Virus record (IMG/VR): IMGVR_UViG_3300045988_069864
DNA length: 64,000 nt
Direction: 5' to 3' (one strand)
Source of the DNA: a virus
Shown in pieces: positions 3,376 to 60,732 of this stretch. Both the position numbers and the translations under genes were made by a program. Position 1 is the stretch's first letter. The number at the start of each line of letters is the position of its first letter. The notes under the pieces were generated by a model. That model was not told where the DNA came from and made no database searches. It worked only from the letters and a program-made list of their open reading frames with translations.

Positions 3376-3720
3376 TTGGCTAAAGTTAAATCAAAACCAA
3401 AGTATTCTAAAGAAAACCAACCCAAAATAAGGCCAGCTCTTACCCCAGAAGCAAGAGAGAATCAGCTTATTTCTTTAGCAGTCGACTTAGTGGAACAGAG
3501 ATTGCTTGATGGTACTGCCTCTTCTCAGGAAACTACTCATTTTCTCAAACTCGGTTCTATGAAGAATCGTCTTGAGATGGAAAAACTTCAAGAAGAGAAC
3601 AAGTTACTCCAGGCAAAGACTGAAGCGCTTCAATCCGCTAAACGAGTTGAAGAACTGTATTCCGAAGCTATCTCTGCCATGCGTCGATATAGCGGTAATG
3701 GTGATCCTGATGAGTATTAG
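3376..3720 (+). CDS. Putative small terminase / DNA-packaging protein
   Basis: First gene of the late operon, TTG start after AAAGGAGG. 114 aa, basic N-terminus plus coiled coil. Its position upstream of HNH and TerL supports the call; the family assignment is not certain. Confidence 0.4.
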   Translation: MAKVKSKPKYSKENQPKIRPALTPEARENQLISLAVDLVEQRLLDGTASSQETTHFLKLGSMKNRLEMEKLQEENKLLQAKTEALQSAKRVEELYSEAISAMRRYSGNGDPDEY

Positions 3721-4159
3721 ACGATATTCCGAGCTAATTACCATTCCTACATACGAGGAACGATTTAAGTATCTTCAACTTAAAGGTGCTGTTGGCGCTG
3801 ATACCTTTGGCTATGATCGATATTTGAATCAGATTCTGTATAACTCTCCGGAGTGGAAGCGATTCAGAAATGACATCATCATTCGAGATAATGGCTGTGA
3901 TCTTGCTTGTGAAGGATATGAGATTAAAGGTTGGAAAGATCAAGAAGGTAAGATTCATAGAGCTAGAATAATCATTCATCATATGAATCCTATCACAGTC
4001 GACGACATTCTTAATCATAATCCAATGGTGTTTGATCCTGAGAATGTTATAACTACAGTTCTCAATACTCACAACGCCATTCATTACGGTGACGAGAAGT
4101 TATTAGTTACTGGACCAGTCACAAGGTCTCCTAACGATACGTGTCTCTGGCGAAAATAA
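3710..4159 (+). CDS. HNH endonuclease (packaging-associated type)
   Basis: ATG 3710 overlaps the previous stop. The protein has the IIIHHMNPI...N...LNTHNAIH H-N-H pattern. HNH genes next to terminase are typical of cos-type phages. Confidence 0.8.
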   Translation: MSIRRYSELITIPTYEERFKYLQLKGAVGADTFGYDRYLNQILYNSPEWKRFRNDIIIRDNGCDLACEGYEIKGWKDQEGKIHRARIIIHHMNPITVDDILNHNPMVFDPENVITTVLNTHNAIHYGDEKLLVTGPVTRSPNDTCLWRK

Positions 4160-5372: not shown

Positions 5373-6428
5373 ATGGAATTGTATCACCACGGAATCAAGG
5401 GACAGAAGTGGGGCATTCGCCGGTATCAATATGCTGACGGTACTTATACTCCTGCTGGTAGGAAGCGATACGGCGTTAGTCAAAGTTCAAGTAATGCTCA
5501 ACGTGTTGCAACCATGATGGGTATGAGAGTAAAAGATGTGGTTAACACAGCGAGAACTCAAGTTACCGGAAGACAGTATGTTGATACATATCTGAAACGA
5601 GGTACAACATTTGCAAGAATTCAAACTTCTAAAGAGTTTGAAAATTTTGCATTCTACGCCACTTATAAGAAGGCTGACTCTGATAAGTATATGGGTCTGT
5701 TTGGGAAGAATCTGACTAGTCGTGCAAACAGTGATGCTAAGCGAGCAGAGAAAACAGCCAATGCTTCCGGTAGTGAAGCTGATGCCGCCACAGCTAAGCA
5801 ACTTCGAGATAAAGCTAACAACATGAAAGTTTATCAGCTGAAGCTAGAGACTACTAAGAAACTGAAAGTTCCGTCAGATGAGAATGCTAGTGACATCACT
5901 GCTAATCTACTGAAAGACTCTGAGTTTAAGAAGAATGTTGTTGCTTCAATTGAGGACTCGAAGGAAAAGATGCGTCGTCCTACTCAACAGGTCTTGTTTA
6001 AGCAAGCTCAAAATGCTTTGAATAAAGATCCGAGTAGGATGACAACTTCAGAGAAGGTTGCAGTCTACAAAGCTTTGAATCTGTCTTTGACTAATCACAA
6101 TCAGCAGGAAGTTGCAGCTCAGGCTAAGTTCTACTCGGAACTAAAGAAGAAAGGTTACAATGCACTGCTCGATTATAATGACAAAGATTATTCGAGTTAT
6201 CATGCTAAGCGACCAATGATCGTGTTCGATACTGACTCCGTGAAGCTTCAATCAGTGGCTGAGGCTAATCCGAAGGTCGTGGAAAAGATGTATGCGAAGT
6301 ATAACGCTGAACGAATCATGAAGGAAGTCGGAGCCAATACAATTGGCTATGTCGGCAAACTTGGTAAAAAGACTGTATCCGAATGCGAATCTTATGTGAA
6401 ACAGAAAACTGACAGCTATTTGAGTTAA
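5373..6428 (+). CDS. YHHG-motif paralog 2 of 4
   Basis: N-terminus is ELYHHGIKGQKWGIRRYQYADGTYTPAGRKRY. At 351 aa it is the longest member. Confidence 0.7.
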   Translation: MELYHHGIKGQKWGIRRYQYADGTYTPAGRKRYGVSQSSSNAQRVATMMGMRVKDVVNTARTQVTGRQYVDTYLKRGTTFARIQTSKEFENFAFYATYKKADSDKYMGLFGKNLTSRANSDAKRAEKTANASGSEADAATAKQLRDKANNMKVYQLKLETTKKLKVPSDENASDITANLLKDSEFKKNVVASIEDSKEKMRRPTQQVLFKQAQNALNKDPSRMTTSEKVAVYKALNLSLTNHNQQEVAAQAKFYSELKKKGYNALLDYNDKDYSSYHAKRPMIVFDTDSVKLQSVAEANPKVVEKMYAKYNAERIMKEVGANTIGYVGKLGKKTVSECESYVKQKTDSYLS

Positions 6429-6433
6429 TTTTA

Positions 6434-6443
6434 GGGGGGGGGG
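6434..6443. repeat. Poly-G tract G10 immediately upstream of paralog 3
   Basis: The 22-nt gap between stop 6428 and ATG 6451 reads TTTTA-G10-TAGATTA. The count is fixed by the flanking ORF coordinates. Confidence 0.9.
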
Positions 6444-6450
6444 TAGATTA

Positions 6451-7170
6451 ATGAATTCCAATGAACTTTACCACCATGGCGTCAAAGGCATGAAATGGGG
6501 TGTTCGCAAAGATCGATCTAGCTACACATCGACTGGACTTAGAGCTGCTATTGCTAGAAGACAGAATGAAAAAGTAGATGCGAACTTTAAAAACTGGAAA
6601 GAAAATTCTGAGAAAAGGACCAATGCCATTGAGCTCGGCAAGAAAATGAACCAATCCAAGATGGCATACGAAAATAACAAATCCGATAAGACATTTCGGC
6701 AGACGTATAAGCAGGACAGTAAAGCTTATAAAAAGGCTCTTAGAAGTAACACTACTTATCGCAAAGGTCAGATTAAGCAGGAAGTTGGTCAGGATGCTTC
6801 TCGGAAATACCTGAGCGAAGCTAAAAAGATAAAGAAACAGTTGGATTCCGATCCTTCTAATAAGCAGCTCCAAAAGAAGTATAATGATCTGATGAGTAAG
6901 CACGACATTGAACGAGCTAATGCTCGTAGAGCTCCAGAAGTAGCAGCGAACCGGTCTAGAAAGAAAGCTGCCATCAAGAGAGCGATGACAATGTCCGTAA
7001 AAGCTGCAGCTACAACCGCTGTTGTTACTGCTGGAACATACGCGGTAAATAAGTATTTGTCAGATCATAATGTAACTTTGAATGGCAACAATCTTCGAGT
7101 CGATTCTAACATGGTCAACACATTTAGTAATGCTGTCAAAGTTGGTAGCGAAATTTTTAAGTATATTTAA
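6451..7170 (+). CDS. YHHG-motif paralog 3 of 4
   Basis: N-terminus is ELYHHGVKGMKWGVRK. The body is K-rich with a hydrophobic segment near the C-terminus. About 43 nt of the 5' end is identical to paralog 4. Confidence 0.7.
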   Translation: MNSNELYHHGVKGMKWGVRKDRSSYTSTGLRAAIARRQNEKVDANFKNWKENSEKRTNAIELGKKMNQSKMAYENNKSDKTFRQTYKQDSKAYKKALRSNTTYRKGQIKQEVGQDASRKYLSEAKKIKKQLDSDPSNKQLQKKYNDLMSKHDIERANARRAPEVAANRSRKKAAIKRAMTMSVKAAATTAVVTAGTYAVNKYLSDHNVTLNGNNLRVDSNMVNTFSNAVKVGSEIFKYI

Positions 7171-7207: not shown

Positions 7208-7795
7208 GTGGATTCCAGTGAACTTTACCACCATGGCGTCAAAGGCATGAAATGGGGTGTTAGGCGGTATCAGCGTGAAGATGGTACTCGTACTATTGCT
7301 GGACAGAAGCACGCTCAGACATTAACCGGCGGAGTTGCTGGTGTGATCAGAAAGAAGCAGCGCAGTAATGCTGAAAAAGACTTAGCACGAACGATCTCTA
7401 AGCAAAAGCAAGTCAATAGTGAACTGCGTGAACTTCGCGGTTATTCAAAAAACCCAAGTAAAATCGGTCGTTCAAAATTGGCTACTGCTATTCGAAATCA
7501 GCAGATTAAGTCTTTGGAACGGACCAATTCTAAGCTCGACCAGCGTAAAAAAGAGAGCACGAGCGCTTTGAAAGAGCTGAAACAGATCGATGAATATCAG
7601 GCAAAGAAAGCTGCCGACAGAGCGCAGAGGAAACTCGCTAATGCAAAGATCAAAGATCTTCAGAAGAAGTATGGGCGTCTCGAAGATCAGATGACTTATG
7701 GTAAAAACGCCGACACTAAGGCTAACGCTCGTATTCAGAAGCAGATGTCTAGTATCGACACTCAGATTAACAAGCTTAAAAAGTCTACACGATAA
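7208..7795 (+). CDS. YHHG-motif paralog 4 of 4
   Basis: GTG 7208 lies 9 nt after AAAGGAGGTGA. N-terminus is ELYHHGVKGMKWGVRRYQREDGTRTIAGQKH, followed by a K/R/Q-rich coiled-coil-like tail. Confidence 0.7.
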   Translation: MDSSELYHHGVKGMKWGVRRYQREDGTRTIAGQKHAQTLTGGVAGVIRKKQRSNAEKDLARTISKQKQVNSELRELRGYSKNPSKIGRSKLATAIRNQQIKSLERTNSKLDQRKKESTSALKELKQIDEYQAKKAADRAQRKLANAKIKDLQKKYGRLEDQMTYGKNADTKANARIQKQMSSIDTQINKLKKSTR

Positions 7796-7809: not shown

Positions 7810-9555
7810 ATGGCATTATCAAATACTGCCGTGCCAATCTATTACGGCCAGTTTCGTGATGCCGTATTGAGAGGCGAAATTCCAGTATGTAAAGAAATCT
7901 CTATGGAGATGAACCGAATAGATGGACTCATTGCAAACCCCGGCATTTGGTATGATGACCAAGCTGTCGAGGGTTTTATTGCATTTTGTGAGAATGAACT
8001 TACGTTGACTGACGGAGAAGACCTTAAGCTTCTAGATTCATTCAAACTTTGGGCTGAGTCAATTTTCGGTTGGTATTACTTTGTAGAGAGAAGTGTATAT
8101 GTTCCGTCTCCGGATGGTCATGGCGGTCACTATGAAAGAAAGTCTATTAAGAAACGATTAGTTAACAAGCAATATCTCATCGTTGCTCGCGGTGCGGCTA
8201 AATCAATGTATGGTGCATGTCTTCAGAGTTTCTTCTTGAATGTGGATACCTCAACTACAAATCAGATCACGACTGCTCCGACAATGAAGCAGGCTGAAGA
8301 AGTTATGAGTCCAATTCGAACCGCAATTACTCGATCCCGTGGACCATTGTTTAAGTTCTTAACCGAAGGTTCACTTCAGAATACGACCGGATCTAAAGCC
8401 AATCGTCAGAAGCTTGTACCTACCAAAAAGGGTATTGAGAATTTCTTAACTGGTTCTCTTCTTGAGATCCGACCGATGACAATCGACAAGATTCAGGGTT
8501 CTCGTGCGAAGATCTGGACAATCGATGAATGGCTTTCTGGCGATGTTCGAGAGGACATTGTTGGTGCTGCTGAACAGGGTGCTTCCAAGAACGACGACTA
8601 TCTGATCGTAGCTATCAGCTCAGAAGGTACCGTCCGTAATGGTAGTGGTGATACGATCAAAATGGAATTGATGGACATCTTAAAAGGTGATTACATCAAT
8701 CCTCATGTGTCAATCTGGTGGTACAAGCTGGATGACATTGACGAAGTCGCTAATCCTGATATGTGGCTCAAAGCCAACCCGAATCTCGGTAAGACTGTCA
8801 GCTATGAAACTTATCAGCTTGACGTCGATCGAGCCGAAAAAGCTCCTGCTACACGAAACGACATCCTGGCAAAGCGCTTCGGTATTCCGTGCGAAGGCTA
8901 TACGTATTACTTTACGTACGAGGAAACTCTTCCTCATCGGAGACGAGATTACTGGAGTATGCCGTGTGCACTTGGCGCTGACCTTTCTCAGGGCGATGAC
9001 TTCTGTGCATTTACGTTCATGTTTCCATTGTCCGATGGTTCATTCGGAATCAAGACTCGTAACTACATAACCGAGCTTACATTGATGAAGCTTCCCGGTG
9101 CTATGCGGAACAAGTACAACGAGTTCATGCGCGAAGGAAGCTTAATTGTTATGCCCGGAACTGTTCTTGACATGATGCAAGTTTATGAGGATCTGGATGA
9201 CCACATCGCCAAGTGCGAGTATGACGTTCGTTGCTTCGGTTTCGACCCCTACAATGCTCGTGAGTTTGTAGAACGATGGGAAAGAGAGAATGGTCCTTTT
9301 GGTATTGAAAAAGTCATTCAGGGTGCCAAAACTGAGTCTGTGCCTTTGGGTGAACTGAAGAAACTTTCTGAGGAAAGAATGCTTAGGTTCGATGAAGATC
9401 TTATGACTTTCGCTATGGGTAACTGCATTACTTTGGAAGATACCAACGGTAACCGTAAACTTTTGAAAAAGCGATATGATCAGAAGATCGATGCTGTTGC
9501 AGCTATGATGGATGCTTATGTGGCATTCAAACTTAATCGAGAAGCATTTGAATAA
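7810..9555 (+). CDS. terL: Terminase large subunit
   Basis: 581 aa. The N-terminal pattern (YYGQFRD..L.GEIP....I......ID) and overall layout are typical of TerL, and the gene precedes portal. Confidence 0.85.
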   Translation: MALSNTAVPIYYGQFRDAVLRGEIPVCKEISMEMNRIDGLIANPGIWYDDQAVEGFIAFCENELTLTDGEDLKLLDSFKLWAESIFGWYYFVERSVYVPSPDGHGGHYERKSIKKRLVNKQYLIVARGAAKSMYGACLQSFFLNVDTSTTNQITTAPTMKQAEEVMSPIRTAITRSRGPLFKFLTEGSLQNTTGSKANRQKLVPTKKGIENFLTGSLLEIRPMTIDKIQGSRAKIWTIDEWLSGDVREDIVGAAEQGASKNDDYLIVAISSEGTVRNGSGDTIKMELMDILKGDYINPHVSIWWYKLDDIDEVANPDMWLKANPNLGKTVSYETYQLDVDRAEKAPATRNDILAKRFGIPCEGYTYYFTYEETLPHRRRDYWSMPCALGADLSQGDDFCAFTFMFPLSDGSFGIKTRNYITELTLMKLPGAMRNKYNEFMREGSLIVMPGTVLDMMQVYEDLDDHIAKCEYDVRCFGFDPYNAREFVERWERENGPFGIEKVIQGAKTESVPLGELKKLSEERMLRFDEDLMTFAMGNCITLEDTNGNRKLLKKRYDQKIDAVAAMMDAYVAFKLNREAFE

Positions 9556-38108: not shown

Positions 38109-38850
38109 ATGAGATTACGTCCCAGGCTTAGAAAGATTCATTAAAAAGAATGGAGCAACTATTCTAACTGGTATCGGGGTCACCGGAGTTGTGGCTACTT
38201 CAGTTTTAGTCGGTAAAGCTACATTCAAAGCTTCCGAAATTTTAGAAGAAACCAAGAAAGAAAAAGGTGGAAAACTGGAAACTATGGAAGCCGTTAAACT
38301 TGTAGCTCCGGTTTATATTCCGTCAATCGTAATGGGCGCATCTACTATTGCTTGTATTCTTGGTGCGAACGTACTGAACAGACATCATCAAGCAGCTTTA
38401 ACTAGTGCGTATGCGTTTGTTGATCAATCTTTCAAAGAGTACAAAGCAAAAGTTACTGAATTGTATGGTGAAGAAGCCGATCAAGCAGTAGAAGAGGCAA
38501 TCGAGCAAGATCATGTTTCAGGAGAAAACGATCTTCAATTATTCTATGATGAATTATCAGACCGATATTTTGAATCTACGCCATACAGAGTCCAAAGAGC
38601 AGAATACGAGTTGAATAGAAATATGCTTAAGCGAGACTATGCATACTTGAATGAATGGTATGAAGAATTAGACCTAGACATCGTAGAGAACGGCTATGCT
38701 TTAGGTTGGTCTACATTCCAATGTATGGAAATGTACTGGCAACCATGGATTGACTTCGATCACTATTCATTCACCACTGAAGATGGTCGAGAATGTATGG
38801 GACTTTGCATTATCCAACAACCGATCTTAGATTTTGAGGATTATTGCTAA
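38109..38850 (+). CDS. TM-anchored paralog A (family of 3); needs a +1 shift at CCC-AGG-C (38121-38127), or is a pseudogene
   Basis: ATG 38109 lies 7 nt after AAGGAGAGG, and the zero frame stops at 38144. The +1 frame from 38113 encodes GLERFIKKNGATILTGIGVTGVV, which aligns with paralogs B and C. Confidence 0.5.
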
Positions 38851-38903: not shown

Positions 38904-39203
38904 ATGTTAAACAAACAAGTTAAAAACCTATTCGAAAGCGAAAAGATGGCTAGAAACATAGAAAACTTTGTGGAAAATATCTACATTGACCAGCTTGTAC
39001 GAGATGATCTCGGAGTTGAAGAGAAAGAAGACATTGCCAAAAGAGCTAAGGAACATTTAGCTAATATGGGAAAGTACGAAGAACAAAACTCTGAGTACTG
39101 GTACAAGTATGGCATTATTGAAGGTGAAATCAAAGGTATGTGGAAAGCTATTGGTGTCTTTGCAGTAAGTTATGCACTTGGAGCTTTACTATTTAGAAAA
39201 TGA
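38904..39203 (+). CDS. Hypothetical 99-aa protein with C-terminal TM helix
   Basis: ATG 38904 follows AAAGGAGGA. C-terminal segment AIGVFAVSYALGALLF. Confidence 0.55.
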   Translation: MLNKQVKNLFESEKMARNIENFVENIYIDQLVRDDLGVEEKEDIAKRAKEHLANMGKYEEQNSEYWYKYGIIEGEIKGMWKAIGVFAVSYALGALLFRK

Positions 39204-39216
39204 CTTAAAATCTTTC

Positions 39217-39256
39217 AAGGGGAGGGTCCTTGGTCGGACTCTTCCTTTTATTTTTC
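39217..39256 (+). terminator. Terminator-like hairpin
   Basis: AAGGGGAGGGTCC..GGACTCTTCCTT imperfect stem followed by TTATTTTT. Confidence 0.5.
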
Positions 39257-39267
39257 CGGAGATAACA

Positions 39268-39624
39268 ATGAGATACCATTATGAAAAACCAGCTATATAT
39301 TCGTCTAAATATGGTGCTACATATACATGTAACCATCCAGTTTACAATAAATGTACTTTATATTTAATTGACGGGAAAGGATTAGCCGTAATCCAGCAGC
39401 GATGTGACGATGAAAAACGAACCTGGTGGGATGAGATAGATCCATGGTTAACTAATGAATTATATTTACATCCAAGATTCAAAAAATTCTTCGATACTCG
39501 CGCAGGAAAGCATGACGAGGGATTATATCCAACTGTGACCATTAGACAAATAATGTGGGCATTAAGAATGAAACCTTTAAAACGTGAGCGATGGGAAACA
39601 TGTTTTGATAAAAAAGATATTTAG
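39268..39624 (+). CDS. Hypothetical 118-aa protein
   Basis: ATG 39268 follows GGAG. No recognisable motif. Confidence 0.5.
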   Translation: MRYHYEKPAIYSSKYGATYTCNHPVYNKCTLYLIDGKGLAVIQQRCDDEKRTWWDEIDPWLTNELYLHPRFKKFFDTRAGKHDEGLYPTVTIRQIMWALRMKPLKRERWETCFDKKDI

Positions 39625-40187: not shown

Positions 40188-40961
40188 ATGAACGCATCAA
40201 TCGTAACTAATTTTATCAAAAGCATTAGAAGTACCGCGACTAAGCATAGTCCTGAAATTCTCACTGGCATCGGCATTGCTGGTATGGTTACTACTACCGT
40301 ATTGGCTGTACGAGCTACTCCGAAAGCTATGACGCTCATCGAGGATAAGAAAGAGGAATTGAAAACCGAAAAATTGCCGGTGATAGAAACCGTAAAAACA
40401 ACGTGGAAATGCTATATTCCGGCGGTTATCACTGGTGCTCTTTCTGTTTCTTGTCTTGTAGGCGCAAGTGCGACTAACCTGAAACGTAATGCAGCTCTTG
40501 CTACTGCATATAAACTGTCTGAAACAGCTCTTAGTGAGTATAAGGACGCAGTAGTTGAGACTATTGGCGAGAAAAAGATGCAGGACGTTAAAGATAAAGT
40601 TGCTGAAAAACAGCTTGAGAGAAGTTCTGCTACTAGATCTGACGTGATTGTTGAGGGTAAGGGTACTACACTTTGCTGCGAAGGTTTCACTGGCAGACGT
40701 TTCTATTGCGATATGGACACATTGAAGAAAGCTGAGAACGAACTCAACCGTAATATTATTAACAACATGTATCAATCTTTGAATGATTTCTACGATTTAC
40801 TTGGGGTTGAATACAGTGAAATGGGTGACGAACTTGGCTGGAATCTTGATAGCGGGACAATTGAATTAAGTTTTAGTTCTCAGCTTACTAGTGATGGTCG
40901 TCCTTGCCTTGTTTATGACTTTAATCATGCCCCGGAGTATAACTTTTCCAACTTTCTATGA
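40188..40961 (+). CDS. TM-anchored paralog B (unknown function)
   Basis: 257 aa with an N-terminal TM segment (ILTGIGIAGMVTTTVLAV). Blocks shared with A and C: RNAALA.AY....EY...V.E..G and LN..Y..LG.....G..LGW. Confidence 0.65.
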   Translation: MNASIVTNFIKSIRSTATKHSPEILTGIGIAGMVTTTVLAVRATPKAMTLIEDKKEELKTEKLPVIETVKTTWKCYIPAVITGALSVSCLVGASATNLKRNAALATAYKLSETALSEYKDAVVETIGEKKMQDVKDKVAEKQLERSSATRSDVIVEGKGTTLCCEGFTGRRFYCDMDTLKKAENELNRNIINNMYQSLNDFYDLLGVEYSEMGDELGWNLDSGTIELSFSSQLTSDGRPCLVYDFNHAPEYNFSNFL

Positions 40962-45483: not shown

Positions 45484-48400
45484 GTGCTTGATTTCTTGCT
45501 GATTTCAACAAGATCCAAGAAGCAAGGAGTCGTCGAGGTATATCCTAAGTTCGTGATAAAGAAAAGTAAGGACTTAATGATCCGAGGCGGCGATTTCTAT
45601 GCTGTTTGGATCGAGGATCGGGGCTTGTGGTCCACAGATGAGCAGGACGCTTTATATTTGATTGACCAAGCGTTGGATGCATACGCAAATGATTATAAAC
45701 AGAAAACTTCTGATACGGTCATAACCCTTCATTTGTGGGATGCTGGCTCAGGAATGATTGACGCTTGGCATAAGTATTGTCAGAAGCAGATGCGTGATAA
45801 CTTCCACATGCTTGATGAAAAATTGATATTCTTGAACACTCCTACGAATAAGAAGGATTATGCAAGTAAAAAGCTCAATTATTCTCTTGAACCTGGCAGC
45901 ATTGATGCATATGAGAAGATCATTTCTACCTTATATTCTCCAGAAGAGCGCCACAAGATTGAATGGGCTATTGGGTCTATTATCGAAGGCGATTCGAAAA
46001 CGATTCAGAAATTTGTAGTCTTTTACGGTTCAATGGGCACAGGTAAATCTACGATTCTGAATATTATTCAACAGTTATTTGAGGGTTACTATTCGGTCTT
46101 TGATGCTAAGGCATTGGGATCGTCTAGTAACTCTTTTGCTTTGGAGCCGTTCAAAAACAATCCTCTTGTGGCTATTCAACATGATGGTGACTTATCGAAA
46201 ATCGAAGATAACACTCGTTTAAACAGTCTGGTTTCTCACGAGATGATGACCGTGAATGAGAAGTTTAAGTCTGCATATTCTAATCGATTTAAATGTTTCT
46301 TGTTCATGGGTACGAATAATCCTGTGAAGATTACTGACGGTAAATCCGGTTTGATTCGAAGACTGATTGATGTATCTCCATCTGGAAACAAGTTGAAGCC
46401 AAAAGAGTATAAGGCTGCTGTAAAGCAGGTGTCGTTTGAACTTGGAGCTATAGCAAGCCATTGTCATGAGGTATATTTAGACGATCCTGGAGCATACGAT
46501 GACTATATTCCGGTTGCAATGCTGGGAGCATCAAACGACTTCTACAACTTTATTGTCGATAACTATCATATTTTCAAGAAAGACGATGGAACGACACTGA
46601 AAGCTGCTTGGGAGATGTATAAAGTATATTGTGATGAGGCGAAGGTTCCTTTCTCGTTGAGTAAGATGAAATTCAAGGAGGAATTGAAGAACTATTTCTG
46701 GGACTTCAAAGAACGATTCGTAGCAGAAGATGGATCTCGTGTACGTAGCTACTACACAGGATTCAGAACTGATAAATTTGAAAACGAAATTGAAGATCCA
46801 AAAATTCCCAGGGAGGAAAAACCGTGGATTCAATTCAATTCGACGGAATCTATATTTGACAAAGAATGCGCGGATTGCTTTGCACAGTATGCTTCGTCAA
46901 AAGAGACTCCGAGTAAAAAATGGGATGACGTAACTTCTACTCTGAAAGATTTGGATACAACAAAGCTTCATTATGTGAAAGTTCCGGAGAATCATATAGT
47001 GATCGACTTCGATATTCCAGATGAGAAAGGAGAGAAGTCGCTTGAGAGAAACCTTGCTGCTGCTTCTTCTTGGCCTACTACTTATGCGGAACTTTCTAAA
47101 AGTGGTGCGGGTATCCACCTACATTATGTTTACGCTGGCGATGTTACTCGCCTTAGTCGGGTGTACGATGATCATATTGAAATAAAAGTATTTAACGGAA
47201 AAAGCTCGCTGAGGCGCAAATTAACCAAATGCAATGATATTCCGATCGCGACTATTAACTCCGGGTTGCCGTTGAAGGAGGATGCAAAATTGATTAATAA
47301 AGACGTAGTTCAGACTGAAAAAGGTCTTCGAACTACTATTAAGAAATGCCTAAACAAAGAGGTTCATCCGAACACGAGATGTAATGTTGATTTCATCAAT
47401 GATATTTTGACTAAAGCCTATGATAGTGGAATTTCATATGACGTATCTGATATGAAAAATGCTGTAATTGCTTTTGCAGCACAAAGCACCAATCAATCGG
47501 ACTATTGCATCAAGCTCGTCAATAGGATGAAATTCAAGTCGGACGAACCTTCAGTTAATAAAGAAGATGAGTCAGCAGACCTGGTCTTTTACGATGTAGA
47601 GGTCTTCCCGAACTTATTCCTTGTGAACTGGAAAATTGCTGGCGAAGGAAAACCGGTAGTCCGAATGATCAATCCTAAGCCGAGTGAGATTGAGGATTTA
47701 CTGAGATTCAAACTTGTTGGCTTTAACTGTCGTCGTTACGACAATCACATGCTTTATGCCAGAATGATTGGCTATACAACCGAGCAGTTGTATGAATTGT
47801 CTCAAAAGATCATTAACACCAAGAAAGGTACTAAAGGCGTATTCTTCGGTGAAGCCTATAACCTCTCGTACACTGATATTTACGACTTCGCTTCTGCCGG
47901 TAACAAAAAGAGCTTGAAGAAACTCGAGATCGAGATGGGTATCCATCATCAGGAGCTCGGACTTCCTTGGGATCAGCCGGTACCGAAAGAAAGATGGATT
48001 GAGGTTGCTGAATATTGCGATAATGACGTTATTGCGACCGAGGCAGCATTCAACTATCTGAAAGCGGATTGGACTGCTCGAGAAATTCTGGCTGACTTGG
48101 CTGGCATGACGGTTAATGATACGACTAACAGTCTCACAACCAAGATTATATTTGGTAACAACAAGAAACCCCAAGGATCTTTCTGTTATCGAGATATGTC
48201 GAAACCGGTCACGGCACTTGATCCGGAAGTCGAAGCATTCTTGAACATGGCTTGTCCCGAAATGATGCAGGCTGCTACTGATGAATCTTATCTCCCATAT
48301 TTTCCTGGGTACAAATTCGAGGGTGGCAAGTCTACTTACCGTGAGGAAGAAGTCGGTGAGGGTGGCTATGTATATTCTGAACCTGGCATATATTTCGATG

Positions 48401-50826: not shown

Positions 50827-50901
50827 GGGCCATTAGCTTAAGGGTAAAGCTGGCAGCTCATAACTGCTTGAGTGCGGGTTCGAATCCTGCATGGCCCACC
50901 A
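50827..50901 (+). tRNA. tRNA with anticodon CAT (elongator Met or Ile2-type), CCA encoded
   Basis: Hand fold: 7-bp acceptor stem (GGGCCAT/ATGGCCC), 4-bp D stem, anticodon stem GGCAG/CTGCT with loop CTCATAA, 5-nt variable loop, T arm GCGGG-TTCGAAT-CCTGC, then ACCA. Confidence 0.85.
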
Positions 50902-51052: not shown

Positions 51053-51266
51053 ATGGCACGAATTATGTTCACTAATCAGAAATGCCCTATTTGTGGGAGG
51101 CGAAGTTCATTATCCAGTCGGTTATAATCCAAAGACGGCTAAAGATCATGGGAATGTCGAATGGATTGTAACTAAAAGAGGTTTAAAACAATTCTTTCAT
51201 ACTAATTGCTATTGGGCTTTAATTGAAGCACAAAAGATCGAAACCGAGATGAATTCTCATGACTAA
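51053..51266 (+). CDS. Zinc-finger-like 70-aa protein; needs a +1 shift at GGG-AGG-C (51095-51101), or is a pseudogene
   Basis: The zero frame gives MARIMFTNQKCPICG then stops at 51127. The +1 frame continues GEVHYPVGYNPKTAKDHGNVEWIVTKRGLKQFFHTNCYW... to TAA at 51266. Total length is 3n+1. Confidence 0.45.
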
Positions 51267-51429
51267 GTATGCAATATTTGTTCGTTTCGATGAGTCGGAG
51301 TCAGGAGATATTTGTGACTATGCTGATGATTTGGAAGAAGCACGCTATCTGCTTAACGAGTATTATGCAGCTTATCATGGCTATTGTGAATTCAAAGTGT
51401 TACCGATATCTGAAAAGGAGTCTGGTTAA
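51259..51429 (+). CDS. Hypothetical 56-aa acidic protein
   Basis: ATG 51259 overlaps the upstream gene's end. The protein begins MTKYAIFVRFDESESGD. Below the track cutoff; the overlapping track ORF at 51269 looks composite. Confidence 0.4.
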   Translation: MTKYAIFVRFDESESGDICDYADDLEEARYLLNEYYAAYHGYCEFKVLPISEKESG

Positions 51430-51430
51430 A

Positions 51431-51875
51431 ATGTTAGCACAAGCTTATCACGACTTACAGGAAAAACAACGACAAGAGATTAATGACTTCCCTATTGCTT
51501 ATGCATTCAGTAATGAACAATTAAAAGAAGCCCTTGTGAAGCTGAGGCAATGTTGAATTATCCGATTGCTGCACTGTAATGAATCATGGCGATATTATGC
51601 TGAAAAAAGACGCTAAACGTTTCATTGAAATGTTGAGACGTCATAATCAAGAAGTTCATGACTTACTCATGAGCAGCGATGATATTGCCTATGAAACATT
51701 CGTGTACGAAATGGATAATCATGAATACGCCATCAACTGGGATGGTGATTATGATGTATTGTGCTCTTTAGGATTAGATGCAAAAGACTTGGAAGACATG
51801 GGACTGCAATGTATCTACCAAAAAGCAAGACATGAACATCTGCGTAAAGCTCATGAAGAATGGGAGATTATTTGA
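51431..51875 (+). CDS. 148-aa protein; needs a +1 shift at CTG-AGG-C (51542-51548), or is a pseudogene
   Basis: Zero frame 51431-51556 ends ..KEALVKLRQC*. The frame of track ORF 51579 is open from 51546. Joining at L-G gives ..FSNEQLKEALVKLGNVELSD..DIMLKKDAKRF... The two halves look like one protein family. Confidence 0.5.
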
Positions 51876-53130: not shown

Positions 53131-53420
53131 AAAAAGATGATATTTTGGTGGTTAAATGCAATGTTTTTCTGAAACAAGATAAATATAAGGATCTCTATCA
53201 AAGCATTCTTGAGCAAAAAATAAACGGTGTGGTTATTCTTCCAGCATATTGCGATGCCGTCATTGTTCCAAAAGATACTGAAATTAAGGTTGAACCTGAC
53301 TCTGACCAGCCTAACCATACATGTATAAATTGTAAGTGCGGTGATAATATAGCTTCTGATGATCCTTGTTACAGATGTATGGAAAAAAGTCTCTGGGAGC
53401 CTAAGGATGATCTTAAATGA
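53127..53420 (+). CDS. Hypothetical 97-aa protein with C-terminal Cys cluster
   Basis: Start/stop overlaps with both neighbours. Cys cluster CINCKCG....DDPCYRC. Confidence 0.55.
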   Translation: MKKDDILVVKCNVFLKQDKYKDLYQSILEQKINGVVILPAYCDAVIVPKDTEIKVEPDSDQPNHTCINCKCGDNIASDDPCYRCMEKSLWEPKDDLK

Positions 53421-55120
53421 ATAAGGAAATATGGAAGGATATCGAGGGCTTTCCTAATTATGAAGTAAGTAATCATGGACAAATTAGAAACAAAACAACT
53501 AACCATATTTTATCTCCGATCCCGGACAAAGACGGATACTTAAGAGTACATTTAAATACTGATAAAACTGTAAAAAGAGTTCATCGATTAGTGGCCGAAG
53601 CGTTTATTCTAAACCCGAACAATAAGTCCCAAGTTAATCATATAGACGGTGACAAAACTAACAATGATGAAACTAATCTCGAATGGGTTACTGTTGGAGA
53701 AAACAACATTCATGCATTAAAAACAGGATTACGAAATATTTCTAGACCAGTCCGAATAGTAGAAACAGGAGAAATTTTTAGCAGTATACGAGAGTGTGCT
53801 TCCGCAATAAATGCTAAAGAACAAAATGTCCAAGCAGTTGCTTCTGAAATGAAAAATCGTAAAACAGTAAATGGTCTACATATTGAATATATGGAAAAAC
53901 CTAAACGTACTCCATTCTTATACGATTATCAAATGGAAGCTGTGCAAAAACTCCATAACGGATGCATTCTTTGTGGTTCTGTGGGATCTGGCAAATCAAG
54001 AACAGGACTTTTCTATTATTTCAAAGAAAACGGTGGTTGGATTGATGAGAACGGTTATGTTCCAATGAAGAACCCTCAAGACTTAATTATCATTACAACT
54101 GCAAAAAAGAGAGATTCGCTCGAATGGGAAGGAGAGTTAGCTAATTTTCTAATTTCAAAAAATCCAGAAGTAAGTTATTACAAAAACAAAGTGATAATCG
54201 ATAGCTGGAATAATATCAAAAAGTACAAAGATGTAACTGGAGCATTCTTTTTGCTGGATGAACAACGATTAGTCGGTAGCGGTTCATGGGTTAAGACTTT
54301 TCTTAAGATTGCTAAATCAAATCAATGGATATTATTAAGTGCAACTCCTGGGGATTCGTACATGGACTATTTGCCGGTATTTTTGGCAAACGGTTTCTTC
54401 AGAAACAAAACCGAATTCACAAGAGAGCATGTTGTATATTCCAGATACACAAAGTATCCAAAGATCGATCACTATGTAGGTACACAATTTCTCAATCGAT
54501 TACGAGACAAAGTTCTTGTAAAAATGAACTATCAGCATAAGATTAATACTCATCATGAGGACATCTATTGCCGGTATGATATTTCAGCTTACAAAGACGC
54601 TATTCGTAACCGTTGGGACCCATATAAAAACGAACCAATTCAACAAGCATCGGGGCTTTGCTATGTTCTAAGAAGAATAGTCAATTCGGATGAATCAAGA
54701 CAGATACAGTTACTCGAAATTCTTGAGGACTACGATCGAGCAATTATATTCTATTCGTTTGACTATGAATTAGATATTCTTAGAAATCTTGGTTACGGCG
54801 AAGATGTTGAAGTTGCTGAATACAATGGGCACAAGCATCAGCCTGTTCCAGAAGGTAAGAAGTGGATATATTTATGTAACTATACATCAGCATGCGAAGG
54901 TTGGGAGAACACACGAACCAACTGTATTATATTTTACAGCCAAAGCTACTCATATAAAGTCATGACTCAAGCTGCTGGACGGATCGATCGACTGAACACT
55001 CCATACGCTGATTTATATTACTATCACCTCAAAAGCCGTTCTGGAATCGACCTAGCCATCTCTAAAGCTCTTAGAGAGAAGAAGCAATTTAATGAAGTTC
55101 GTTGGGTTAACGGACATTGA
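53417..55120 (+). CDS. HNH homing-endonuclease-like module (NUMOD4 + HNH + IENR-like) fused in frame to an SF2 (DEAD/SNF2-like) helicase
   Basis: aa 1-~155 carry WKDIEGFPNYEVSNHGQIRN, HRLVAEAF and VNHIDGDKTNN..NLEW. From the internal Met 159 (nt 53891) the helicase motifs follow: YDYQ, GSVGSGKS, LLDEQ and SATPG. Confidence 0.7.
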   Translation: MNKEIWKDIEGFPNYEVSNHGQIRNKTTNHILSPIPDKDGYLRVHLNTDKTVKRVHRLVAEAFILNPNNKSQVNHIDGDKTNNDETNLEWVTVGENNIHALKTGLRNISRPVRIVETGEIFSSIRECASAINAKEQNVQAVASEMKNRKTVNGLHIEYMEKPKRTPFLYDYQMEAVQKLHNGCILCGSVGSGKSRTGLFYYFKENGGWIDENGYVPMKNPQDLIIITTAKKRDSLEWEGELANFLISKNPEVSYYKNKVIIDSWNNIKKYKDVTGAFFLLDEQRLVGSGSWVKTFLKIAKSNQWILLSATPGDSYMDYLPVFLANGFFRNKTEFTREHVVYSRYTKYPKIDHYVGTQFLNRLRDKVLVKMNYQHKINTHHEDIYCRYDISAYKDAIRNRWDPYKNEPIQQASGLCYVLRRIVNSDESRQIQLLEILEDYDRAIIFYSFDYELDILRNLGYGEDVEVAEYNGHKHQPVPEGKKWIYLCNYTSACEGWENTRTNCIIFYSQSYSYKVMTQAAGRIDRLNTPYADLYYYHLKSRSGIDLAISKALREKKQFNEVRWVNGH

Positions 55121-60491: not shown

Positions 60492-60732
60492 ACGAACAGT
60501 AACTATTAGTGGCAGAGAAGAGGACGTTGCTACTGTACTTAGGCTCCTTAAACATATGGAGTATCTTGGAAATGTTGGAGTAAGCAGAAATCTCCTTGTA
60601 TGGGTCGACGGAGACGGCTGTGGTCAGATTCATGTAATGGACAAAAGCGGAGAGAAGCTAGATAATGTCCATTATAGCATAGAGCAGATCCCTACTATGG
60701 GTGCTGTTGCTGGCATTTACGATATCGGTTGA
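60484..60732 (+). CDS. Hypothetical 82-aa protein
   Basis: ATG overlaps the upstream end. The gene is flanked by the 39-nt repeat pair 60432-60470 / 60748-60786. Confidence 0.55.
   Translation: MIERTVTISGREEDVATVLRLLKHMEYLGNVGVSRNLLVWVDGDGCGQIHVMDKSGEKLDNVHYSIEQIPTMGAVAGIYDIG

What the first reader, a model, noticed from the sequence alone, without database searches (positions are those of the whole stretch)
51431..51875. Split gene 3 of 3: CTG-AGG-C junction joins two halves of one protein family
- ORF 51431-51556 ends ..FSNEQLKEALVKL-RQC*.
- The frame of the downstream ORF (track start 51579) is open only from 51546, so any joining event must fall in an 8-nt window, and AGG-C sits in it.
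- The +1 product reads ..KEALVKLGNVELSDCCTVMNHGDIMLKKDAKRFIEMLRRHNQEVHDLL..YEMDNHEYAINWDGDYDVL..LGL.
- From memory, uninterrupted proteins of this type (..FAFS..QF.E.M.KLG... then ..NHEY..) occur in Firmicutes mobile elements. The Gly supplied by the +1 GGC codon matches their conserved KLG.
- CTG cannot re-pair in +1, so the mechanism would be Ty3-like (no P-site slippage) if it is real.
Basis: partly seen in the sequence, partly recalled or inferred. Interest (0 to 1): 0.65.

Follow-up and report, generated by a model that had tools for sequence, protein, structure and literature searches.

The report
Conserved AGG-C frameshift site in phage gene
A human-gut phage gene of unknown function (DUF7659 family) is broken by one extra A that creates the rare codon AGG; two other genes in the same genome are broken in the same way, and all three still evolve as coding sequence, so ribosomes most likely skip that A to make the full protein.

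Summary

**What is there**
- ORF A (51431-51556, 41 aa) and ORF B (51579-51875, 98 aa, +1 frame) are two parts of one DUF7659 (PF24692) protein.
- Skipping A51545 gives a 147-aa product that aligns without gaps to more than 500 single-ORF homologues. It restores the family-invariant Leu38-Gly39.
- The extra A is not an assembly error. The split occurs in well over 100 contigs from independent human-gut metagenomes.
- All 11 haplotypes examined, which differ by up to 16% of nucleotides among themselves, keep CTG-AGG-C.

**Evidence that the gene is still used**
- Both halves are under purifying selection. In ORF A 19 of 25 changes fall at third codon positions, and in ORF B 52 of 69.
- The 33-nt stretch between the junction and ORF B's ATG contains no start codon, yet it changes mainly synonymously in the +1 frame.
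- ORF B has no Shine-Dalgarno sequence.
- The same genome has two more homology-verified +1 junctions of the same form: CCC-AGG-C (38121-38127) and GGG-AGG-C (51095-51101). Each restores a Gly codon.
- CCC-AGG-C is an experimentally proven +1 shift heptamer in E. coli.

**Verdict**
- Most likely this is conserved hungry-codon (Ty1-like) +1 ribosomal frameshifting, probably at low efficiency.
- No trans-frame protein has been shown.
- Rivals are two separate polypeptides or a decaying pseudogene.

The parts
51415..51420 (+). Shine-Dalgarno sequence AAGGAG of the recoded gene, 10 nt upstream of ATG 51431
51431..51556 (+). ORF A, zero frame, 41 aa. Codons 1-38 are the N-terminal part of DUF7659. 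The tail RQC plus TGA is what the zero frame gives if no shift occurs.
   Evidence: Purifying selection: 19 synonymous against 5 non-synonymous codon variants.
51542..51548 (+). Proposed +1 shift heptamer CTG-AGG-C. A51545 is the skipped base and GGC (51546-51548) encodes the family-invariant Gly39.
   Evidence: Invariant in 11 haplotypes that differ by up to 16% of nucleotides. Gly39 is invariant in 58 homologues.
51543..51545 (+). TGA in the +1 frame. It closes that frame upstream and so fixes the 5' limit of the shift window.
51546..51578 (+). Linker: 11 codons in the +1 frame (GNVELSDCCTV) with no ATG, GTG or TTG. It can be translated only by ribosomes arriving from ORF A.
   Evidence: 7 of 11 changes fall at third positions (P=0.039). 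Family-conserved S44, C46, C47 and T48 change only synonymously. Residues 46-47 form a predicted beta-strand.
51554..51556 (+). Zero-frame stop TGA. It is the 3' limit of the shift window.
   Evidence: It is changed to TGG in L044/L045, with a new stop 3 codons later.
51579..51875 (+). ORF B, +1 frame, 98 aa: the C-terminal part of DUF7659 (HGD, EMDNHEY and INWDGD motifs). Its ATG has no Shine-Dalgarno sequence.
   Evidence: Selection: 54 synonymous against 14 non-synonymous.
51053..51266 (+). Sister site 2: a zinc-ribbon-like 70-aa gene. ATG is at 51053 and the shift heptamer GGG-AGG-C is at 51095-51101 (A51098 skipped). The zero-frame stop is at 51125-51127.
   Evidence: Uninterrupted homologues of 65-74 aa align without gaps. 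The junction is kept in relatives about 88-90% identical over this region, with synonymous changes on both sides.
38109..38850 (+). Sister site 1: a DUF6353 (PF19880) membrane-protein gene of 246 aa. ATG is at 38109, preceded by AAGGAG. The shift heptamer CCC-AGG-C is at 38121-38127 (A38124 skipped). The zero-frame stop is at 38142-38144.
   Evidence: The single-ORF homologue P0170 starts MRLYPGLKVFVKKHG. The junction is kept as CCC-AGG-C in L050 (64% aa identity) and as CCC-AGG-T in L051/52 (81%). The +1 frame after the junction is coding.

Best explanation
The DUF7659 gene of this roughly 65-kb human-gut siphovirus carries a real, fixed one-base insertion (A51545) between the Leu38 and Gly39 codons. 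It is still expressed as one 147-aa protein by +1 ribosomal frameshifting on CUG-AGG-C.

**Proposed steps (inferred)**
1. A ribosome with peptidyl-tRNA-Leu on CUG waits for the scarce tRNA-Arg(CCU) at AGG, which is the rarest Arg codon in the phage.
2. Meanwhile Gly-tRNA(GCC) decodes the overlapping GGC.
3. [quoted passage not shown]
4. Ribosomes that do decode AGG terminate three codons later and release a 41-aa peptide.

Efficiency is probably low, a few per cent. The site would then act as an expression attenuator, or as a sensor of tRNA-Arg supply.

**Shown**
- The insertion exists and is widespread.
- Selection acts on both halves and on the linker.
- NNN-AGG-Y recurs at three split genes.

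**Inferred**
- The ribosomal event itself, its exact site and its efficiency.
For: 1. **One family, one domain.** Pfam DUF7659 matches as a single stretch across the junction. Of the 510 homologues found, nearly all of those listed are single ORFs. The AlphaFold model has pLDDT 94 and one compact domain whose predicted strands (22-24, 46-47, 54-57) come from ORF A, the linker and ORF B.
2. **The insertion is real.**
   - The 41-aa ORF A sequence occurs on 131 contigs.
   - The 98-aa ORF B sequence occurs on 86, 28 and further contigs from NCBI, JGI, ENA and Logan.
   - The junction DNA is identical in independent assemblies.
3. **The gene did not decay after the split.** Across 11 haplotypes (84-99.8% identity) there are no indels.
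   - ORF A: 19 of 25 changes at third positions (P=1.6e-5).
   - ORF B: 52 of 69 (P=1e-12).
   - Linker: 7 of 11 (P=0.039).
   - In the linker, the family-conserved residues S44, C46, C47 and T48 change only synonymously, while the family-variable positions 41-43 change amino acid.
4. **No route to the linker except from ORF A.** The linker has no start codon, and ORF B's ATG has no Shine-Dalgarno sequence, whereas most genes here have AAGGAG or AGGAGG.
5. **Recurrence.**
   - All three homology-verified split genes in the window break at NNN-AGG-C, and skipping the A restores a Gly codon in each.
   - Site 1 persists to 64% protein identity and tolerates AGG-C changing to AGG-T, which is still Gly.
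6. **Precedent.**
   - CCC-AGG-C alone gives 5% +1 frameshifting in E. coli, verified by mass spectrometry and dependent on tRNA-Arg(CCU) (PMC7022156).
   - Ty1 uses CUU-AGG-C with GGC as the +1 codon (PMC5009743).
7. **Codon rarity.** AGG is the rarest Arg codon in the phage: 35 of 15,562 codons.
Against: - **No protein, ribosome-profiling or reporter data.**
- **Poor re-pairing.** tRNA-Leu on CUG re-pairs poorly on UGA, unlike CCC to CCA and GGG to GGA at the sister sites.
- **The same heptamer is tolerated in frame.** CTG-AGG-C occurs in frame in the essential DNA polymerase gene (47209). CTT-AGG-T, CTT-AGG-C and CCC-AGG-G also occur in frame. In-frame AGG-Y is not depleted. The heptamer therefore cannot be very efficient by itself.
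- **No stimulator found.** No downstream RNA structure was detected (z=0.51).
- **Weak linker statistics.** They rest on only 11 changes.
- **Dispensable in some relatives.** Some have deleted part of the gene (L026, L042/43).
- **Host unknown.** The host and its tRNA-Arg(CCU) level are not known.
Confidence: 0.65

Rival explanations
1. Split gene expressed as two polypeptides. ORF A gives a 41-aa peptide. ORF B starts at ATG 51579 by termination-reinitiation after the TGA 22 nt upstream. The two pieces assemble non-covalently and the linker is not translated.
For: - ATG 51579 is present and invariant, and lies 22 nt after the zero-frame stop.
- Both ORFs are under purifying selection.
- A second lineage (L034) carries an independent frame break only 3 nt away. 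This fits a tolerated split point.
Against: - There is no Shine-Dalgarno sequence before ATG 51579 in a genome that otherwise uses strong ones.
- The untranslated linker would not be expected to keep family-conserved codons with only synonymous changes.
- Residues 39-49 include the family-invariant Gly39 and the near-invariant E45, C46 and T48, plus a predicted strand of the single domain.
- This model cannot work at sister site 1. There the upstream part is only 5 codons, and the first downstream start is not conserved.
Confidence: 0.17
2. An inactivating frameshift mutation in a dispensable accessory gene, that is, a pseudogene. The apparent selection would be inherited from before the break, or would be due to recombination.
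For: - The gene is partly deleted in some relatives (L026, L042/43). Site 2 is deleted in L018/L021.
- The same heptamer is read in frame in the DNA polymerase gene.
Against: - Eleven haplotypes that all share the break differ at up to 16% of nucleotides, almost entirely synonymously and with no further indels or stops.
- No intact relative closer than 81% nucleotide identity was found that could donate sequence.
- Three unrelated genes carry the same AGG-C lesion.
Confidence: 0.12
3. The frameshift occurs elsewhere in the 8-nt window by a prfB-like mechanism. The internal SD-like GAGG (51544-51547), a 3-nt spacer, UGU in the P site and the UGA stop in the A site would give ..KLRQC-ELSD...
For: - The arrangement GAGG-CAA-TGT-TGA mimics prfB's AGGGGG-UAU-CUU-UGA spacing (prfB from PMC5009743 and PMC10885494).
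- The RQC tail and the TGA are kept in 10 of 11 haplotypes.
Against: - tRNA-Cys on UGU or UGC cannot re-pair on GUU or GCU.
- The product would lose the family-invariant Gly39.
- In L044 the stop is moved 3 codons downstream.
- The sister sites have no stop adjacent to the AGG.
Confidence: 0.04
4. A sequencing or assembly artefact: the A is not in the phage DNA.
For: None was found. Reads were not available.
Against: - The junction is identical in many assemblies from different studies, assemblers and archives.
- The site is not a homopolymer.
Confidence: 0.02

Closest known systems
[quoted passage not shown] 2020, PMC7022156)
   Same: - A one-base insertion is corrected by a +1 shift when the rare AGG is in the A site and GGC is the +1 codon.
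- The heptamer is sufficient without stimulators.
- Sister site 1 of this phage is the identical heptamer.
   Different: - That case is a laboratory or clinical mutant, not an evolutionarily conserved arrangement.
- Here the P-site codon is CUG, which cannot re-pair.
- The organism is a phage of gut Clostridia, not E. coli.
Yeast Ty1 programmed +1 frameshift, CUU-AGG-C (reviewed in PMC5009743)
   Same: - The motif has the same AGG-C core.
- It works by a hungry AGG codon, an abundant tRNA-Gly for GGC, and no RNA structure.
- Both a short and a long product are made.
   Different: - It is a eukaryotic retrotransposon.
- tRNA-Leu(UAG) slips from CUU to UUA, whereas CUG to UGA gives at best two non-adjacent pairs.
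- The trans-frame product of Ty1 is a fusion of two different proteins (Gag-Pol). Here the shift merely restores one ancestral protein.
Yeast Ty3 +1 frameshift, GCG-AGU-U (own knowledge; reviewed in PMC5009743)
   Same: The P-site tRNA cannot slip, so the out-of-frame aminoacyl-tRNA would bind directly.
   Different: Ty3 needs a 3' stimulatory sequence. Nothing comparable was detected here.
Perkinsus marinus mitochondrial cox1, AGGY read as Gly (Masuda et al. 2010, cited in PMC5009743)
   Same: AGG followed by Y is decoded as glycine by skipping the A. There are several such sites, all restoring the conserved protein.
   Different: There, every AGG shifts because the codon is unassigned. Here 35 AGG codons are read in frame elsewhere in the genome.
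Listeria phage PSA +1 frameshifts in capsid and tail genes, and prfB CUU-UGA-C (own knowledge; prfB in PMC10885494)
   Same: Natural +1 recoding in a phage or a bacterium.
   Different: - Those sites pause on a stop codon, not on a rare sense codon.
- They produce C-terminally extended structural proteins or autoregulate RF2.

Membership tests
Pfam DUF7659 (PF24692) | Profile score above the curated cut-off (27 bits) over most of the model | tested here: met
   The joined 147-aa product scores 88 bits (E=7e-25). Residues 6-123 match model positions 2-122 of 135 as one stretch across the junction.
Pfam DUF7659 (PF24692) | Family-invariant residues are present (Leu38-Gly39, G53-D54, E93-M94, N96-H97-E98-Y99, I101-N102, D106) | tested here: met
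   The 58-sequence alignment A5 lists these columns as invariant, with the joined product as first row. Gly39 exists only if A51545 is skipped.
Hungry-codon +1 ribosomal frameshift (Ty1 / rpoB CCC-AGG-C type) | A rare, slowly decoded zero-frame codon in the A site | tested here: inconclusive
   AGG is the rarest Arg codon in the phage (2.25 per 1000). The host and its tRNA-Arg(CCU) level are unknown.
Hungry-codon +1 ribosomal frameshift (Ty1 / rpoB CCC-AGG-C type) | The overlapping +1 codon is read by an abundant tRNA (GGC/GGU, Gly) | tested here: inconclusive
   The +1 codon is GGC at all three sites and GGT in L051. tRNA abundance cannot be tested here.
Hungry-codon +1 ribosomal frameshift (Ty1 / rpoB CCC-AGG-C type) | Peptidyl-tRNA can re-pair in the +1 frame | tested here: not met
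   At this site CUG would shift to UGA, which pairs poorly. The feature is met at the sister sites (CCC to CCA, GGG to GGA).
Hungry-codon +1 ribosomal frameshift (Ty1 / rpoB CCC-AGG-C type) | The site is conserved and coding constraint switches frame at it | tested here: met
   CTGAGGC is invariant in 11 haplotypes. Third-position bias is seen in frame 0 upstream of the site and in frame +1 downstream, including the start-less linker.
Hungry-codon +1 ribosomal frameshift (Ty1 / rpoB CCC-AGG-C type) | A trans-frame polypeptide is demonstrated | not testable with these tools
   This needs mass spectrometry, a reporter assay or ribosome profiling.
Ty3-type +1 frameshift (no P-site slippage) | A non-slipping P-site tRNA, a hungry A-site codon and a 3' stimulator | tested here: inconclusive
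   The first two features fit CUG-AGG. No downstream structure or shared 3' context was found among the three sites.
prfB-type +1 frameshift | A stop codon in the A site, a slippery P-site codon, and an SD-like element 3 nt upstream | tested here: not met
   GAGG-CAA-TGT-TGA has the right spacing and a stop. However, UGU cannot re-pair, and the product would lack the invariant Gly39.
Independently translated split gene | The downstream ORF has its own ribosome-binding site and start codon | tested here: not met
   ATG 51579 is present, but no SD-like motif lies 4-20 nt upstream of it.

The most novel reading that the evidence does not exclude
A lineage of phages of gut Clostridia uses NNN-AGG-Y hungry-codon +1 frameshifting as a repeated, conserved device in at least three accessory or early genes (DUF6353, a zinc-ribbon protein and DUF7659). 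This would be the first natural Ty1-like recoding system in a bacterial virus.

Because the shift rate depends on charged tRNA-Arg(CCU), it could couple expression of these genes to the host's tRNA-Arg supply. One example would be switching them on when a host defence or starvation depletes tRNA-Arg. In related phages DUF7659 sits next to the anti-defence genes Tad3 and Sequestin.
Probability: 0.4. Interest if true: 0.8.

Novelty: new variant of a known kind. Interest (0 to 1): 0.68.

Why it matters
**Recoding biology.** Natural programmed +1 frameshifting in bacteria and phages is known from only a handful of cases, and those mostly pause on stop codons. If confirmed, three conserved AGG-Y sites in one phage would show that the rare-sense-codon mechanism is also used in nature by bacterial viruses. 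Until now it is known from yeast Ty1 and, in bacteria, only as accidental suppression. It would also provide a simple sequence rule for finding more cases: NNN-AGG-Y with Gly restored.

**Annotation.** Gene callers currently split or truncate all three genes, into 41 aa plus 98 aa, a 219-aa N-truncated DUF6353, and an uncalled zinc-ribbon gene. This inflates counts of hypothetical small ORFs in gut-phage catalogues.

**Function.** It gives a testable link between tRNA-Arg availability and expression of phage accessory genes.

Tried and rejected
**Searches that found little or nothing**
- Megablast of the region against GenBank phages found no match. tblastn found only two distant uncultured 'Bacteriophage sp.' records.
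- The metagenome DNA-pattern scan gave only 4 loci, one a chance match.
- The IMG/VR pattern scan for the site-1 cassette found only the same lineage plus one chance hit.
- PHROGs gave no hit for DUF7659.
- Fold searches of the confident model found no PDB chain with E<=0.001. They found only a weak match to a viral protein labelled 'Queuosine biosynthesis protein', so the function stays unknown.
- The geometry scan of all held loci for further AGG junctions found none beyond the three sites.

**Explanations checked and not supported**
- CTGAGGC as an over-represented genome-wide signal: 4 copies against 4.2 expected, and the other three are in frame inside long ORFs.
- A phage-encoded frameshift-suppressor tRNA: the window has only tRNA-Met(CAT).
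- A downstream RNA stimulator: the fold is no better than shuffled sequence.
- Depletion of in-frame AGG-Y: not significant (P=0.24).
- Transcriptional slippage: there is no homopolymer at the site.

**Other candidate frame junctions dismissed**
- 3376-3720 / 3572-4159.
- 6486 and 7243, which are a repeated 5' sequence of two paralogues.
- 41429 and 44093.
- All of these are ordinary gene starts.

**Host identification**
- The GTDB genome scan gave only phage-like contigs in MAGs, plus Eubacterium ramulus and Eisenbergiella contigs carrying distant family members.

Full report
**1. The observation**

- The window reads ...GCC CTT GTG AAG CTG AGG CAA TGT TGA in the frame of ATG 51431. That ATG follows a strong Shine-Dalgarno sequence (AAGGAG, 51415-51420) and lies one base after the stop of the upstream gene.
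- This 41-codon ORF A ends ..KEALVKLRQC*.
- The +1 frame has TGA at 51543-51545, is open from 51546, has its first ATG at 51579 and runs to 51875 (98 aa from that ATG).
- A +1 event can therefore only skip base 51545, 51548, 51551 or 51554.
- Skipping A51545 gives a 147-aa product.

**2. The two ORFs are one gene**

- The joined product matches Pfam DUF7659 (PF24692) at 88 bits against a cut-off of 27. Residues 6-123 match as one stretch across the junction.
- A search of 5.8 billion proteins found 510 relatives. Nearly all of the 120 listed are 143-147 aa and cover 96-100% of the query.
- The alignment is gap-free through the junction: the window has LKEALVKLGNVELSDCCTVMNHGD and P0001 has LKEALKKLGNVELSDCCTVMNHGD.
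- In a 58-sequence alignment Leu38 and Gly39 are invariant. The extra base is therefore the A of AGG, because deleting either G would give Ser.
- An AlphaFold2 model (pLDDT 94, pTM 0.84) is one compact domain. Its predicted strands at residues 22-24, 46-47 and 54-57 come from ORF A, the linker and ORF B respectively.
- No solved structure resembles the model, and PHROGs has no family for it. The biochemical function remains unknown.
- In related phages the intact gene lies in the variable region after the replication genes, next to Bro-N, Tad3 or Sequestin genes.

**3. The extra A is real and old**

- The exact 41-aa sequence is on record from 131 contigs. The 98-aa sequence is on record from 86, 28, 7 and further contigs in NCBI, JGI/IMG, ENA and Logan, some of them 62-65.6 kb long.
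- The phage is an uncultured siphovirus of about 65 kb from human gut samples, with 40% GC.
- Distant family members sit on Eubacterium ramulus and Eisenbergiella contigs. This points to Lachnospiraceae-type hosts.
- I collected 11 distinct haplotypes of 51431-51875 from independent assemblies. They are 84-99.8% identical to each other, and the most distant are 87% identical to the window.
- All 11 keep CTGAGGC and have no indels.
- Synonymous sites next to the heptamer do vary (GCC/GCT, GTG/GTA, AAG/AAA).

**4. The gene did not decay after the break**

| Segment | Changes at third codon positions | P | Synonymous : non-synonymous codon variants |
|---|---|---|---|
| ORF A (codons 1-38, frame 0) | 19 of 25 | 1.6e-5 | 19 : 5 |
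| ORF B (frame +1) | 52 of 69 | 1e-12 | 54 : 14 |
| Linker 51546-51578 (frame +1) | 7 of 11 | 0.039 | 5 : 5 |

- The linker is the informative segment. It has no ATG, GTG or TTG in the +1 frame, so only ribosomes coming from ORF A can translate it.
- The pattern inside the linker mirrors the family.
  - The near-invariant residues S44, C46, C47 and T48 show only synonymous changes (TCC/TCG/TCT, TGC/TGT twice, ACT/ACC).
  - The family-variable positions 41-43 change amino acid (V to A, E to D or G, L to I).
- For residues 44-49 that is 5 synonymous and 1 non-synonymous change. About 22-33% synonymous would be expected for random changes, which gives P of roughly 0.003-0.02 by my own calculation.
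- ORF B's ATG has no Shine-Dalgarno motif. Most genes in the window have AAGGAG or AGGAGG.

**5. Two more breaks of the same form in the same genome**

A scan for AGG codons at frame junctions, followed by inspection, found two further cases.

*Site 1*
- AAGGAG-N9-ATG AGA TTA CGT CCC AGG C TTA GAA..., with ATG at 38109 and AGG at 38124.
- The zero frame stops after 11 codons. Skipping the A gives MRLRPGLERFIKKNGATILTG..., a 246-aa DUF6353 (PF19880) protein.
- Single-ORF homologues start the same way: P0170 begins MRLYPGLKVFVKKHGATILT.
- The junction is kept as CCC-AGG-C in L050 (64% protein identity). It is kept as CCC-AGG-T in L051/L052 (81% identity), where the codons on both sides differ but +1 GGT still gives Gly.
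- The 22 codons after the junction are clearly coding in the +1 frame. The window's first downstream start (GTG 38191) is GTA in L051.

*Site 2*
- AGGAG-N8-ATG 51053 ... TGT GGG AGG C GAA GTT, with AGG at 51098.
- Skipping the A gives MARIMFTNQKCPICGGEVHYPVGYNPK..HTNCYW.., 70 aa.
- It aligns without gaps to uninterrupted 65-74-aa homologues.
- This junction is also kept in relatives about 88-90% identical over this region, with synonymous changes on both sides.

*Taken together*
- All three homology-defined frame breaks in this genome are NNN-AGG-C, and in each one skipping the A restores a glycine codon.
- AGGY occupies 0.5% of positions. Three coincidences have a probability of about 1e-7, or a few 1e-6 if a few positions of leeway are allowed.
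- An unbiased geometry scan that ignored the codon recovered sites 1 and 3 among only four candidate regions on the plus strand.

**6. Mechanism**

- The motif is that of known hungry-codon +1 frameshifting.
  - In E. coli, CCC-AGG-C by itself gives 5% +1 shifting. That was verified by mass spectrometry, is reduced by extra tRNA-Arg(CCU), and rescues a one-base insertion in rpoB (PMC7022156).
  - Yeast Ty1 uses CUU-AGG-C with abundant tRNA-Gly reading the +1 GGC (PMC5009743).
  - In Perkinsus mitochondria AGGY is read as Gly (cited).
- AGG is the rarest Arg codon in this phage (35 of 15,562 codons).
- At sites 1 and 2 the P-site tRNA can re-pair perfectly (CCC to CCA, GGG to GGA).
- At the finding's site CUG to UGA cannot re-pair.
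- No downstream RNA structure is predicted (z=0.51), as is usual for this class.
- Efficiency must be modest. The identical heptamer CTG-AGG-C is read in frame in the DNA polymerase gene (47209). CTT-AGG-T (terminase, 9382), CTT-AGG-C (60538) and CCC-AGG-G (46807) are also in frame. In-frame AGG-Y is not depleted.
- I therefore see the sites as low-efficiency recoding that sets a low or conditional level of the full-length proteins. Most ribosomes would terminate shortly after the AGG.

**7. Rivals**

- *Two separate polypeptides with reinitiation at ATG 51579.* This remains possible for this site. An independent extra A in an A7 run only 3 nt upstream in another lineage (L034, 80% identity) hints that this point of the protein tolerates a break. 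The model fails to explain the linker's coding pattern and the missing ribosome-binding site, and it cannot apply at site 1.
- *A pseudogene.* This is contradicted by the selection data. However, the gene is dispensable in some relatives that have deleted parts of it.
- *A prfB-like shift at TGT-TGA with the internal GAGG.* This fits the spacing, but the product would lose the invariant Gly39.
- *An assembly artefact.* This is excluded for practical purposes by the many independent assemblies.

**8. Verdict**

- Alone it would be an interesting conserved frame break in a gene of unknown function.
- Together with its two sister sites it is good comparative evidence for natural, conserved AGG-Y +1 recoding in a bacteriophage. 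That is a new variant of a known mechanism.
- What is missing is any protein-level proof, the efficiency, the host, and the function of DUF7659.

Noticed in passing
L034:704-932 (ENA ERZ27255444 contig k115_238105): A lineage 80% identical to the window carries an independent frame break in the same gene, only 3 nt upstream of the window's junction. An A7 run (CTT AAA AAA A CTT GGA) gives a 41-aa ORF ending KKTWKC*. The contigs are short (about 930 nt), so it is unclear whether this is slippage-prone recoding, a mutation or an error.
   Followed up: partly
window 38904-39203 and 39172-39624: Two plus-strand ORFs overlap by 32 nt in a +1 relation. The downstream ORF (150 aa) has no Shine-Dalgarno sequence, and there is no AGG in the overlap. 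I did not resolve whether this is one gene or two. The relative L051 appears to lack the 150-aa ORF.
   Followed up: partly
window 38109-38850 and 40188-40961: The genome has two DUF6353 (phrog_2152) paralogues. The first needs the CCC-AGG-C shift and the second is an uninterrupted 257-aa ORF. The relatives L050 and L051 also carry two copies.
   Followed up: partly
window 6428-6500 and 7208-7270: The tandem genes 6451-7170 and 7208-7795 share an identical stretch near their 5' ends (CCATGGCGTCAAAGGCATGAAATGGGGT). The first is preceded by a G10 run (6434-6443) just upstream of its ATG, which is a possible slippage tract.
   Followed up: no
window 50827-50901: tRNA gene with anticodon CAT (Met, or Ile2 if modified). 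It is the only tRNA in the window and lies between the ssDNA-binding-protein gene and split-gene site 2.
   Followed up: no
window 7810-9555: The large terminase gives tblastn matches reported at about 79-81% identity to terminases of Streptomyces phages (RosaAsantewaa, ClubPenguin and others). That is unexpectedly high for a 40% GC human-gut phage.
   Followed up: no
L026:2649-2870; L042/L043:1319-1501; L018/L021 around 2034-2120: Relatives carry deletions in this accessory region.
- L026 lost the 3' part of ORF B plus two downstream genes.
- L042/43 lost ORF A and the 5' part of ORF B.
- L018/L021 have a 36-nt deletion that removes the CPIC motif and the GGG-AGG-C junction of site 2.
   Followed up: partly
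window 53417-55120: This 567-aa ORF has NUMOD4/HNH_3 hits. The corresponding gene in relatives L015 and L018 is 405 aa with no Pfam hit on record. This suggests a homing-endonuclease-like module fused to it in the window's lineage.
   Followed up: no
window 47209-47215, 46807-46813, 9382-9388, 60538-60544: Shift-prone heptamers occur in frame inside long genes: CTG-AGG-C and CCC-AGG-G in the DNA polymerase gene, CTT-AGG-T in the terminase gene, and the exact Ty1 heptamer CTT-AGG-C in a small ORF. They should yield some truncated product if AGG is hungry in the host.
   Followed up: partly
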